A stretch of DNA of 64,000 bases, taken from IMG/VR virus record IMGVR_UViG_3300023174_000037; one strand, given 5' to 3'. Shown here piece by piece: positions 36,296 through 36,472 of this stretch; the first letter of the stretch is position 1; each line of letters starts with the position of its first letter. The position numbers and the translations under genes were made by a program. The notes under the pieces were generated by a model, which was given only the letters and a program-made list of their open reading frames with translations, was not told the origin of the DNA and did no database searches. The DNA is from a virus (lineage: Duplodnaviria > Caudoviricetes).

Positions 36296-36472
36296 TTATA
36301 TGGTAGGACCGCCCGGATTCGAACCGGGGATTGGCAGATTAAAAGTCTGCTGTGATACCGCTTCACCACGATCCCTTACTTTTTGTAAACGTCTAAGAGC
36401 TTTGGTACTCTTGCGGTGCGAGCCCGCCTTCCGTTTACTTGCCAATACAGCAAATATATTTCTTGGTTTCAT
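36296..36472 (-). CDS. Basic micro-ORF (MKPRNIFAVLASKRKAGSHRKSTKALRRLQKV...) reading through tRNA-Lys
   Basis: RBS AAAAGGAG, 7-nt spacer; no stop before tRNA-Lys position 1 (36375). Confidence 0.6.
   Translation of the reverse strand: MKPRNIFAVLASKRKAGSHRKSTKALRRLQKVRDRGEAVSQQTFNLPIPGSNPGGPTI
36301..36375 (-). tRNA. tRNA-Lys(UUU)
   Basis: Loop CUUUUAA, CCA. Confidence 0.95.

What the first reader, a model, noticed from the sequence alone, without database searches (positions are those of the whole stretch)
36296..36472. Basic micro-ORF that becomes a non-stop mRNA when tRNA-Lys is processed
Seen: strong RBS, then 32 codons (MKPRNIFAVLASKRKAGSHRKSTKALRRLQKV) plus one base before tRNA-Lys G1; the first in-frame stop lies beyond the tRNA. 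Known: RNase P cuts at tRNA position 1, and ArfA is a small basic ribosome-rescue protein made from a non-stop mRNA so that tmRNA controls its level. Inference: a tmRNA-gated peptide, possibly a ribosome-binding rescue factor, in a phage with its own tmRNA. Caveat: removing one A from the CAAAAAGUAA run gives a normal stop (...RLQK*), so an indel is possible.
Basis: partly seen in the sequence, partly recalled or inferred. Interest (0 to 1): 0.7.

Follow-up and report, generated by a model that had tools for sequence, protein, structure and literature searches.

The report
Stop-less basic peptide gene abutting tRNA-Lys
A tiny, very basic and strongly conserved phage gene runs straight into a lysine tRNA without a stop codon, so cutting out the tRNA should leave a stop-less message; this is the control logic of the bacterial back-up ribosome-rescue factors ArfA and BrfA, reached by a new route, and it marks a large unnamed protein family of Betaproteobacteria and their phages.

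Summary
On the minus strand an AAGGAG ribosome-binding site and ATG (36472) open 32 sense codons, then one base, then G1 of tRNA-Lys(UUU) (36375). The first in-frame stop is TAA at 36298-36296, after the tRNA.

It is not an indel. Contigs from three independent metagenome studies are identical across the junction. In 97 of 97 distinct relatives with a tRNA within 40 nt of the conserved core, the frame enters the tRNA (95 Lys-UUU) without a stop, in all three frames equally.

The peptide belongs to an unnamed family of at least 409 clusters in jumbo phages and Betaproteobacteria. It is clearly coding: third-position variation, dN/dS about 0.23, ribosome-binding site in 92 of 97.

Where no tRNA follows, many members run into a long, covarying hairpin instead. 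That is the arfA layout.

Best reading: RNase P processing makes a non-stop mRNA, so output is gated by trans-translation. The product is probably a new ArfA/BrfA-like rescue factor.

Function is inferred only. There is no sequence homology to ArfA. Support is circumstantial: rtcB lies immediately upstream in nine bacterial loci, and one related phage clusters a GGQ gene, the micro-ORF, tRNA-Lys and RtcB.

The scan has already flagged this family on other phage genomes.

The parts
36494..36570 (-). tRNA-Arg(TCG), upstream neighbour. Its CCA 3' end (36494) bounds the 5' side of the mini-mRNA.
   Evidence: ARAGORN; Rfam tRNA 66.4 bits
36473..36493 (-). 21-nt leader with Shine-Dalgarno AAGGAG (36485-36480), 7 nt before the ATG
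   Evidence: Sequence. An SD-preceded start is found in 92 of 97 tRNA-abutting relatives.
36377..36472 (-). Micro-ORF: ATG plus 31 further sense codons, giving a 32-aa basic peptide (P0002). It is the shortest subfamily of a family whose core consensus is PRNPFVxLAxxRKAGxHRKSNKAxRRxEK.
   Evidence: Codon-position entropy 0.85/0.69/1.48 and dN/dS about 0.23.
36376..36376 (-). Single extra base (A). It is position -1 of the tRNA-Lys precursor and the last base of the mRNA after RNase P cleavage.
   Evidence: N(-1) in relatives is U 47, A 29, C 16, G 3.
36301..36375 (-). tRNA-Lys(UUU) with encoded CCA. The ORF frame runs through it (tRNA base 1 is codon position 2).
   Evidence: ARAGORN; Rfam 65.4 bits
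36296..36298 (-). First in-frame stop (TAA), reached only on unprocessed precursor RNA (58-aa read-through product)
43101..43394 (-). Phage-encoded permuted (two-piece) tmRNA with a 29-residue tag ending ...SFAV. It is the likely partner that tags products of the stop-less message.
   Evidence: ARAGORN. Rfam RF04321 123 bits and RF01850 119 bits.

Best explanation
The micro-ORF is a real, translated gene of a large, unnamed family of small basic proteins. It deliberately has no stop codon of its own.

Proposed mechanism:
1. The tRNA array is transcribed as a precursor.
2. RNase P cuts at G1 of tRNA-Lys (36375).
3. This leaves a roughly 118-nt message (leader, SD, 32 codons plus one base) that ends without a stop.
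4. Ribosomes run to its 3' end and stall.
5. While trans-translation is available (host or phage tmRNA), the 32-aa product is tagged and removed. When rescue capacity is short, it is released untagged and accumulates.

This is the feedback logic of arfA (RNase III hairpin or terminator inside the ORF) and brfA (terminator inside the ORF). Here a tRNA 5'-processing site does the job.

By analogy and context, the peptide is most likely a back-up ribosome-rescue factor that senses the empty mRNA channel with its basic part and recruits a release factor.

Shown: the anatomy, coding selection, conservation of the stop-less junction, and the alternative hairpin layout in relatives.
Inferred: the order of cleavage and translation, tmRNA tagging, and the rescue activity itself.

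My odds: real translated gene about 0.95; non-stop design with rescue-pathway gating about 0.75; rescue-factor function about 0.45.
For: 1. The junction is real. Identical contigs come from three studies with no indel.

2. The family is large. There are 64 close clusters and 409 clusters at E<=1e-3 in an exhaustive profile search. All named members are 'hypothetical protein'. There is no Pfam, PHROG or NCBIfam match.

3. It is coding. The third codon position is the most variable, dN/dS is about 0.23, and an SD plus start is found in 92 of 97. Both differences inside the ORF in a variant contig are synonymous third positions.

4. The stop-less junction is conserved. Among 257 distinct contexts, 97 have a tRNA within 40 nt of the core, and in all 97 the frame enters it without a stop.
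- In the 76 tRNA-Lys-abutting viral contexts analysed first, the offset between core end and tRNA is 0, 1 or 2 (mod 3) in 25, 25 and 26 cases.
- In that set the first stop lies 5-176 nt inside or beyond the tRNA.
- So the tRNA-encoded tail is not selected; only the absence of a stop is.
- N(-1) favours U and avoids G, as expected of RNase P substrates (the preference itself is my own knowledge).

5. There is an interchangeable truncating element. In members without a tRNA, the ORF enters a gapless hairpin of at least 16 bp in 37 of 123 bacterial and 16 of 37 viral cases. Control ORF ends give 12 of 500 and 7 of 500.
- Of hairpins of at least 18 bp, 29 of 29 and 16 of 17 are entered by the ORF rather than following its stop.
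- The chromosomal hairpin has 23 pairs, 8 of them with compensatory changes.

6. The rescue context fits.
- A permuted tmRNA is present in the window and in 4 of 4 complete related phages.
- A stand-alone GGQ (RF-1 domain) gene is present in 2 of those 4 and in L019.
- rtcB ends 3-41 nt upstream on the same strand in 9 bacterial loci.
- In phage L009 the GGQ gene, micro-ORF, tRNA-Lys and RtcB lie within 4 kb.
- rtcB2-prfH is a known rescue-plus-repair operon (PMC11741408).

7. The design resembles known factors.
- The RKAGSH stretch resembles ArfA KGKGS and ArfT KKGGS (PMC6299226).
- There is a nearly invariant His within the basic stretch; compare the Lys-His contact shared by ArfA and BrfA (PMC6881298).
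- The size of 32-46 aa compares with ArfT at 40 aa and mature ArfA at 52-55 aa.
Against: - No RNA 3'-end, ribosome-profiling or protein data exist.
- A contig from an RNA library spans the ORF-tRNA junction (X15 record 11). Unprocessed precursor, or carried-over DNA, therefore exists.
- A ribosome following the polymerase closely could read through before the tRNA folds.
- No sequence homology to ArfA or BrfA was found: Pfam PF03889 gives no hit, hhalign probability is 0.1%, and a profile search of PDB sequences finds nothing.
- About a quarter of family contexts have an ordinary stop with no strong structure (classes C and D). Examples are the Hylemonella-type chromosomal genes and Variovorax phage V45v66. 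Non-stop expression is therefore not obligatory for the family.
- The family co-occurs with ArfB about as often as not: 37 of 68 genomes with it, against 212 of 333 without.
- The near-exclusive choice of tRNA-Lys(UUU), across very diverse tRNA bodies (median identity 0.62), is not explained by the non-stop model alone.
Confidence: 0.6

Rival explanations
1. Counter-defence or tRNA-Lys-linked function. The peptide is still made from a stop-less message, but its job is tied to tRNA-Lys(UUU), the target of anticodon nucleases such as PrrC or the PARIS effector. It might protect or escort the phage tRNA-Lys, block such a nuclease, or clear ribosomes stalled at Lys codons as part of a 'replacement tRNA plus clean-up' cassette.
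For: - 95 of 97 adjoining tRNAs are Lys(UUU), although their bodies are very diverse (median identity 0.62, minimum 0.34).
- The tRNA ligase RtcB is a recurrent neighbour.
- That tRNA-Lys is the target of PrrC and PARIS is my own knowledge, not tested here.
Against: - Most bacterial members have no tRNA-Lys next to them and use a hairpin instead, so the peptide works without that tRNA.
- No similarity to any known defence or anti-defence protein was found. PADLOC was not searched.
- This rival overlaps with the main reading rather than excluding it.
Confidence: 0.2
2. Translation-coupled control of tRNA-Lys maturation. The ORF acts mainly in cis as a Lys-codon-rich leader. Ribosomes that run into the tRNA unfold it and block RNase P. 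Ribosomes stalled at Lys codons when Lys-tRNA is scarce let it fold, so tRNA-Lys output is tuned to demand.
For: - There are about 5 Lys codons in the 32-codon core.
- The link to tRNA-Lys(UUU) is near-exclusive.
- With no spacer, translation and folding of the acceptor stem are physically exclusive (inference).
Against: - The amino-acid sequence, not just Lys content, is conserved: N5 and R27 are invariant, and R4, A16, G17, H19, K21 and K24 are at least 90% conserved. dN/dS is about 0.23.
- Homologs stand alone or carry a hairpin with no tRNA.
- No alternative terminator/antiterminator structure is evident.
Confidence: 0.1
3. An ordinary small gene that merely overlaps the tRNA. The functional product is the read-through protein translated from unprocessed precursor RNA (58 aa here) and terminated at the stop inside or after the tRNA.
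For: - An in-frame stop always exists further on. In 25 relatives it is the conserved U8-A9-G10 of the tRNA.
- A contig from an RNA library spans the junction.
Against: - Frame offsets are evenly 0, 1 and 2 (25/25/26).
- Tails range from about 2 to about 60 residues and are dictated by tRNA sequence with no conservation of their own.
- The parallel hairpin layout in relatives is not explained.
Confidence: 0.07
4. Artefact: a homopolymer indel in the assembly hides a normal stop (…RLQK-stop), or the conserved stretch is a non-coding 5' leader of tRNA-Lys.
For: Removing one A from the A5 run gives a TAA in frame.
Against: - Three independent assemblies agree and show no indel.
- Most relatives have junctions that are not one base from a stop.
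- The codon-position pattern, SD plus ATG, and homologs away from tRNAs show that it is coding.
Confidence: 0.01

Closest known systems
ArfA (YhdL, Pfam PF03889), RF2-dependent alternative ribosome-rescue factor of E. coli
   Same: - A small basic protein.
- Its ORF is cut short before its stop codon by an RNA element, so it is made from a non-stop mRNA and kept low by trans-translation (PMC8012679).
- Many relatives of the window's peptide carry exactly this in-ORF hairpin.
- It has a basic stretch with a K-G-K-G-S-like motif (RKAGS here) and a His.
   Different: - No detectable sequence homology.
- The truncating element here is a tRNA 5' end (RNase P), not an RNase III hairpin or terminator.
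- The peptide is shorter (32-46 aa).
- RF2 recruitment is untested.
- In a sample of 401 genomes of the order, ArfA occurs in only 4, and none of those has this family.
BrfA (YqkK) of Bacillus subtilis
   Same: - Unrelated in sequence to ArfA, yet it has the same design: non-stop mRNA, basic C-terminal part in the mRNA channel, and a Lys-His contact (PMC6881298).
- This shows that the design evolves repeatedly.
   Different: - BrfA uses a rho-independent terminator inside the ORF.
- Its mature form is 62 aa, with N-terminal helices that contact the 50S subunit.
- A profile search of PDB sequences with the family profile, set up to detect chains such as BrfA and ArfA, returned no real match.
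ArfT of Francisella tularensis
   Same: - A 40-aa rescue factor with a KKGGSTNKK stretch (PMC6299226).
- Size and motif resemble the family's RKAGSHRKSNK.
   Different: - arfT has its own stop and is not controlled through a non-stop mRNA (PMC6299226).
rtcB2-prfH rescue-and-repair operon
   Same: A ribosome-rescue factor encoded next to the RNA ligase RtcB (PMC11741408). In 9 bacterial loci the family gene starts 3-41 nt after rtcB, and one related phage has RtcB 340 nt downstream.
   Different: - PrfH is a GGQ release-factor homolog of about 200 aa. This family has no GGQ motif and would need a partner hydrolase.
- The window itself has neither RtcB nor a GGQ gene in its 64 kb.
tRNA punctuation of animal mitochondrial transcripts (textbook knowledge)
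   Same: Excision of an abutting tRNA defines the 3' end of an mRNA whose ORF has no complete stop codon.
   Different: In mitochondria, polyadenylation completes a U or UA to UAA, so termination is normal. Here the last bases (GUA A, and varied in relatives) cannot be completed to an in-frame stop, so the message stays stop-less.
DUF7230 (Pfam PF23876)
   Same: - Small basic proteins with an N-terminal RNP-V-A motif.
- Nearest named cluster by language-model features: score 0.85, 168 shared features.
- Three of six examples also run into a long hairpin before or at their stop.
   Different: - The Pfam model does not hit any of 144 family members, nor the family-bearing genomes.
- Profile-profile similarity is weak: 25 columns, P 0.014, probability 3%.

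Membership tests
ArfA (PF03889) | Sequence match to the ArfA profile | tested here: not met
   No hit at E<=10 for the peptide or for 144 family members. hhalign against E. coli ArfA gives probability 0.1%.
ArfA (PF03889) | ORF interrupted by an RNA processing or termination element before its stop codon, giving a non-stop mRNA | tested here: met
   By sequence anatomy only. tRNA 5' end at codon 33. 97 of 97 relatives with an adjoining tRNA have no prior stop. In-ORF hairpins are enriched 12- to 30-fold in the rest. Cleavage itself was not observed.
ArfA (PF03889) | Basic C-terminal tail with KGKGS-type motif and Lys-His that occupies the empty mRNA channel | tested here: inconclusive
   The core carries RKAGSHRK with nearly invariant G17 and H19 and flanking Lys/Arg. 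This is a resemblance of a few residues only, with no structure on the ribosome.
ArfA (PF03889) | Recruits RF2 to non-stop ribosomes and is synthetically lethal with ssrA | not testable with these tools
   Needs biochemistry or genetics.
BrfA | Sequence similarity to the solved B. subtilis BrfA chain | tested here: not met
   A profile search of all PDB chain sequences at E<=10 found only a His-tag artefact.
DUF7230 (PF23876) | Match to the Pfam model over its cut-off | tested here: not met
   No hit in 144 members. No hit over the cut-off in five family-bearing genomes. hhalign P 0.014, probability 3%.
tRNA (Rfam RF00005), RNase P substrate | The downstream element is a canonical tRNA with a defined 5' end | tested here: met
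   ARAGORN tRNA-Lys(ttt) at 36375-36301. Rfam 65.4 bits with the full model. Encoded CCA.
Amino-acid-sensing leader peptide / attenuator | Short ORF whose peptide sequence is unimportant, enriched in cognate codons, coupled to alternative RNA structures | tested here: not met
   The peptide sequence is under purifying selection. Homologs exist without any tRNA. No alternative terminator/antiterminator pair was seen.

The most novel reading that the evidence does not exclude
This is a new, widespread family of trans-translation-gated alternative ribosome-rescue factors of Betaproteobacteria and their jumbo phages.

- The chromosomal genes delete their stop codon with an RNase III-type hairpin.
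- The phage genes delete it with RNase P processing of an abutting tRNA-Lys(UUU). That would be the first case of tRNA maturation used to programme a non-stop mRNA in a bacterial system.
- In phages, the peptide, a replacement tRNA-Lys, a phage tmRNA and, in some, RtcB and a GGQ hydrolase would form a translation damage-control cassette. It would keep ribosomes working when host defences cut tRNA-Lys or mRNAs.
Probability: 0.4. Interest if true: 0.9.

Novelty: new variant of a known kind. Interest (0 to 1): 0.8.

Why it matters
- Reviews of ribosome rescue state that further small, release-factor-recruiting factors probably exist but are hard to find by homology (PMC8012679). This family is a concrete candidate, found through its gene layout rather than its sequence.
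- It would fill a gap in Betaproteobacteria. Canonical ArfA was found in only 4 of 401 sampled genomes of the order, while this family was found in 68.
- It shows a third, previously undescribed way to programme a non-stop mRNA: a tRNA 5' end, beside the RNase III hairpin and the in-ORF terminator.
- It suggests that giant phages carry their own feedback-controlled rescue system alongside their tRNAs and tmRNA.
- The 32-41-aa peptides are small enough to synthesise and test directly.

Tried and rejected
- **GenBank phages.** No close relative of the region was found. The only hit was a distant 52-aa homolog with a normal stop in Variovorax phage V45v66.
- **Tool limits.** I used a 58-aa reference with region 1-40 and a degenerate DNA pattern instead.
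- **First hairpin measure.** The longest helix in the MFE fold, bulges allowed, did not separate the family from control ORF ends (61% against 55%). I dropped it for a strict gapless measure.
- **Frame conservation.** The '+1 base' offset seen in the close clade looked like a constraint, but it vanishes in the wider family (25/25/26; L018 has offset 0).
- **Programmed frameshift at the A-run.** Only the window, L003 and L021 have GTAA at the junction.
- **Phyletic complementarity.**
  - ArfA and the family do not overlap, but with only 4 ArfA genomes this says nothing.
  - ArfB occurs in 37 of 68 genomes with the family against 212 of 333 without, which is no clear difference.
- **Complex prediction.** Hylemonella RF2 with its own family protein returned 'no answer'.
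- **RNA libraries.** Only assembled contigs were on hand, and these cannot show RNA ends or strands.
- **Window search.** No GGQ-domain gene or RtcB was found in the 64-kb window.
- **No whole genome is held for the window**.
- **AcrIIIA1 paper.** It was read because it mentions tmRNA and tRNA fragments, and it is unrelated.
- **Burroughs and Aravind's wide 'ArfT' family.** It is described as a charged-helix repeat family (PMC6514570), and no Pfam model of any kind matched the family here.

Full report
**1. What is in the sequence**

The feature lies on the minus strand inside a 30-tRNA array of an uncultured freshwater jumbo phage.

- tRNA-Arg(TCG) ends with CCA at 36494.
- 21 nt later, after AAGGAG (36485-36480), an ATG (36472-36470) opens 32 sense codons (to 36377).
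- Base 36376 is the first base of codon 33, and the next base is G1 of tRNA-Lys(UUU).
- ARAGORN places the tRNA at 36375-36301, and the Rfam tRNA model scores 65.4 bits.
- The frame stays open through the tRNA and closes at TAA 36298-36296.
- The peptide has 6 Lys, 5 Arg and 1 His in 32 residues.
- A permuted tmRNA lies 6.6 kb upstream at 43394-43101.

**2. Is the missing stop an error?**

No.

- Logan contigs of DNA runs from three different studies cover the junction with no difference and no gap: X1 record 4, 36201-36631; X3 record 28, 36331-36634; X2 record 21, 36353-36631.
- No indel is listed anywhere in 35800-37000.
- A variant contig from an RNA library (X15 record 11, 36209-36523) differs at 14 places. 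The two inside the ORF (36440, 36449) are both synonymous third positions, by my reading.

**3. Relatives**

- There is no Pfam, PHROG or NCBIfam match and no close GenBank phage.
- A word-indexed search found 64 protein clusters. All share the first roughly 32 residues at 66-97% identity, but their tails are wildly different.
- DNA of 20 loci showed why: the tails are translated tRNA-Lys. The distance from ATG to tRNA base 1 is 97 nt in most. Junction sequences differ, so most are not one base from a stop.
- An exhaustive profile search of 1.84 billion representatives gave 409 clusters at E<=0.001. The core consensus is PRNPFVxLAxxRKAGxHRKSNKAxRRxEK.
- All named members are 'hypothetical protein'.

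**4. The stop-less junction is the conserved feature**

With the other loci this gave 257 distinct contexts.

- In 97 of them a tRNA starts within 40 nt of the core, and in all 97 the frame enters it without a stop. The tRNAs are 95 Lys-UUU, 1 Lys-CUU and 1 called SeC.
- There is no case of a stop followed by a tRNA within 40 nt.
- In the 76 tRNA-Lys-abutting viral contexts analysed first, the core-to-tRNA offset modulo 3 is 25/25/26.
- In that set the first in-frame stop lies 5-176 nt inside or beyond the tRNA, 25 times at the conserved U8-A9-G10.
- So nothing selects the tRNA-encoded tail. Only the lack of an earlier stop is selected.
- The adjoining tRNAs are very diverse: 76 distinct sequences, median pairwise identity 0.62.
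- Position -1 is U 47, A 29, C 16, G 3.

**5. It is a translated gene**

- Column entropy by codon position is 0.85, 0.69 and 1.48.
- Median pairwise dN/dS is about 0.23.
- 92 of 97 have a Shine-Dalgarno-preceded start.
- The stop-less product would be 32-46 aa, most often 40-41. The window's clade is the shortest.
- AlphaFold2 with the family alignment gives helix 6-13, a loop holding KRKAGSHRK, and helix 23-31, with mean pLDDT 81.

**6. A second, interchangeable truncating element**

- Members without a tRNA often run into a long near-perfect hairpin that starts a few codons after the core. The stop lies in the loop, in the 3' arm or beyond.
- A lenient helix measure did not beat controls.
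- A strict one did. This counted gapless inverted repeats with at most 2 mismatches. The ORF enters a stem of at least 16 bp in 37 of 123 bacterial and 16 of 37 viral members, against 12 of 500 and 7 of 500 control ORF ends from the same loci.
- Of stems of at least 18 bp, 29 of 29 and 16 of 17 are entered by the ORF rather than following its stop.
- In one chromosomal subfamily the hairpin has 23 predicted pairs, 8 of them with compensatory double changes. The stop follows at variable distance, with tails of 29-76 codons.
- This is the layout described for arfA (in-ORF stem-loop cut by RNase III or acting as a terminator) and brfA (in-ORF terminator) (PMC8012679, PMC6881298).
- About a quarter of contexts have an ordinary stop and no strong structure. 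ArfT is likewise expressed normally (PMC6299226).

**7. Where the family lives**

- The bacterial hits are almost all Betaproteobacteria: Hylemonella, Rhodoferax, Curvibacter, Thiomonas, Derxia, Rhodocyclaceae, Gallionella, Thiobacillus, Undibacterium. Many sit on megabase contigs.
- In an even sample of 401 genomes of the order, 68 have the family, 4 have canonical ArfA (no overlap) and 249 have ArfB.
- ArfB is present in 37 of 68 family-positive and 212 of 333 family-negative genomes. There is no clear complementarity.

**8. Context that bears on function**

- All four complete related phages (terminal repeats, 235-353 kb) with the micro-ORF encode a permuted tmRNA. Two also encode a stand-alone GGQ RF-1-domain protein, as does L019.
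RtcB (PF01139, E 6e-132) lies nearby in 14. In 9 it ends 3-41 nt upstream of the family gene on the same strand.
- In the complete phage of L009, four genes lie within 4 kb: the GGQ gene (about 7669-7923), the micro-ORF (10001-10097), tRNA-Lys (10098-10171) and an RtcB homolog (10509-11684, 54% identical).
- rtcB2-prfH is a known 'rescue then repair' operon (PMC11741408).
- The window's own 64 kb holds neither RtcB nor a GGQ gene.

**9. Comparison with known factors**

- There is no homology to ArfA: no Pfam hit and hhalign probability 0.1%.
- No solved chain, BrfA included, matches the family profile.
- Resemblance is limited to design:
  - size;
  - a basic stretch with RKAGS, like ArfA KGKGS and ArfT KKGGS;
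  - a nearly invariant His, like the Lys-His shared by ArfA and BrfA;
  - the non-stop layout.
- The nearest named cluster by language-model features is DUF7230, with score 0.85. Its Pfam model does not hit the family, and profile-profile similarity is weak at P 0.014.
- Three of six DUF7230 genes also run into a hairpin before or at their stop.
- Full-text searches found no paper describing tRNA processing as a source of a programmed non-stop mRNA, or describing this family.

**10. Reading**

- The comparative evidence makes a designed non-stop message the most economical explanation.
- Two unrelated RNA elements are known or expected to be cut: a tRNA 5' end by RNase P, and a long duplex by RNase III. 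Both sit at the same place relative to the same conserved peptide, and the coding frame downstream of that place is unconstrained.
- The rescue-factor function is an inference from analogy and neighbourhood.
- The near-exclusive use of tRNA-Lys(UUU) in the tRNA-abutting form is unexplained. It may point to a link with tRNA-Lys damage.
- The same family has been flagged and followed up on other phage genomes in this scan, with a similar reading. I reached mine before reading those notes.

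Noticed in passing
L303:1477-1635, L304:1477-1641, L307:1489-1662 (bacterial genomes of the class): DUF7230 (PF23876) small basic proteins share the N-terminal RNP-V-A motif. They also run into a long hairpin with the stop in its 3' arm (L303, L304), or into a terminator-like hairpin inside the ORF (L307). They may be a second unrecognised family with arfA-type control.
   Followed up: partly
L009:7669-11684 (complete 344-kb phage G406): A GGQ RF-1-domain gene, the stop-less micro-ORF, tRNA-Lys(UUU), two more tRNAs and an RtcB homolog lie on one strand within 4 kb. 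This looks like a possible phage 'rescue and repair' cluster.
   Followed up: partly
L010:10097-10190, L015:10106-10185, L028 (after the family ORF): tRNA-Lys-like elements have a UUU anticodon loop, a paired acceptor stem and CCA, but an odd D region and T loop, and ARAGORN does not call them. In L015 a TAA abuts base 1. In L028 and L010 the stop lies inside the element.
   Followed up: no
L031, L087, L043 (after the family ORF): The ORF runs into what looks like the 5' half of a tRNA (GCATAGCTCAGTTGGTAGAGCAG...) that then diverges. ARAGORN calls no tRNA, so this may be an interrupted or split tRNA.
   Followed up: no
L016:9920-10100 and L017: A divergent member (42 codons plus 1 base, stop in the tRNA D-loop) has a perfect TTGACA-17-TATAAT promoter directly upstream. 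There, the ORF and tRNA-Lys form their own transcription unit.
   Followed up: no
window 43101-43394; L008:4176-4616; L021:3115-3522; L003:15341-15756: Phage tmRNA tags differ by lineage. The window and L008 share a 29-residue tag ending SFAV (4 substitutions). L021 has a 27-residue tag ending NDEQFAIAA. L003 has the short ANDEQFALAA.
   Followed up: no
window 36230 to 36494-36505: One low-depth DNA contig (X2) and one RNA-library contig (X15) join about 36230 to about 36494-36505. This skips the spacer, tRNA-Lys and the micro-ORF as a block. It may be a relative lacking the module, or a mis-join between similar tRNAs (short sides of 22 and 36 nt).
   Followed up: no
window 38526-38999, 39813-40908, 42130-42855 (minus strand): Protein genes interspersed in the tRNA array: RNaseH_like (PF04308), a calcineurin-like phosphoesterase next to a dual-specificity phosphatase-like protein, and a Gcw_chp family protein (E 1e-49).
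   Followed up: no
L155 (Undibacterium amnicola KCTC 52442), L210 (Thiobacillus denitrificans DSM 12475): Cultured Betaproteobacteria carry the ORF-into-tRNA-Lys(UUU) form on large chromosomal contigs. These are handy strains for experiments. Whether the loci are prophages was not checked.
   Followed up: no
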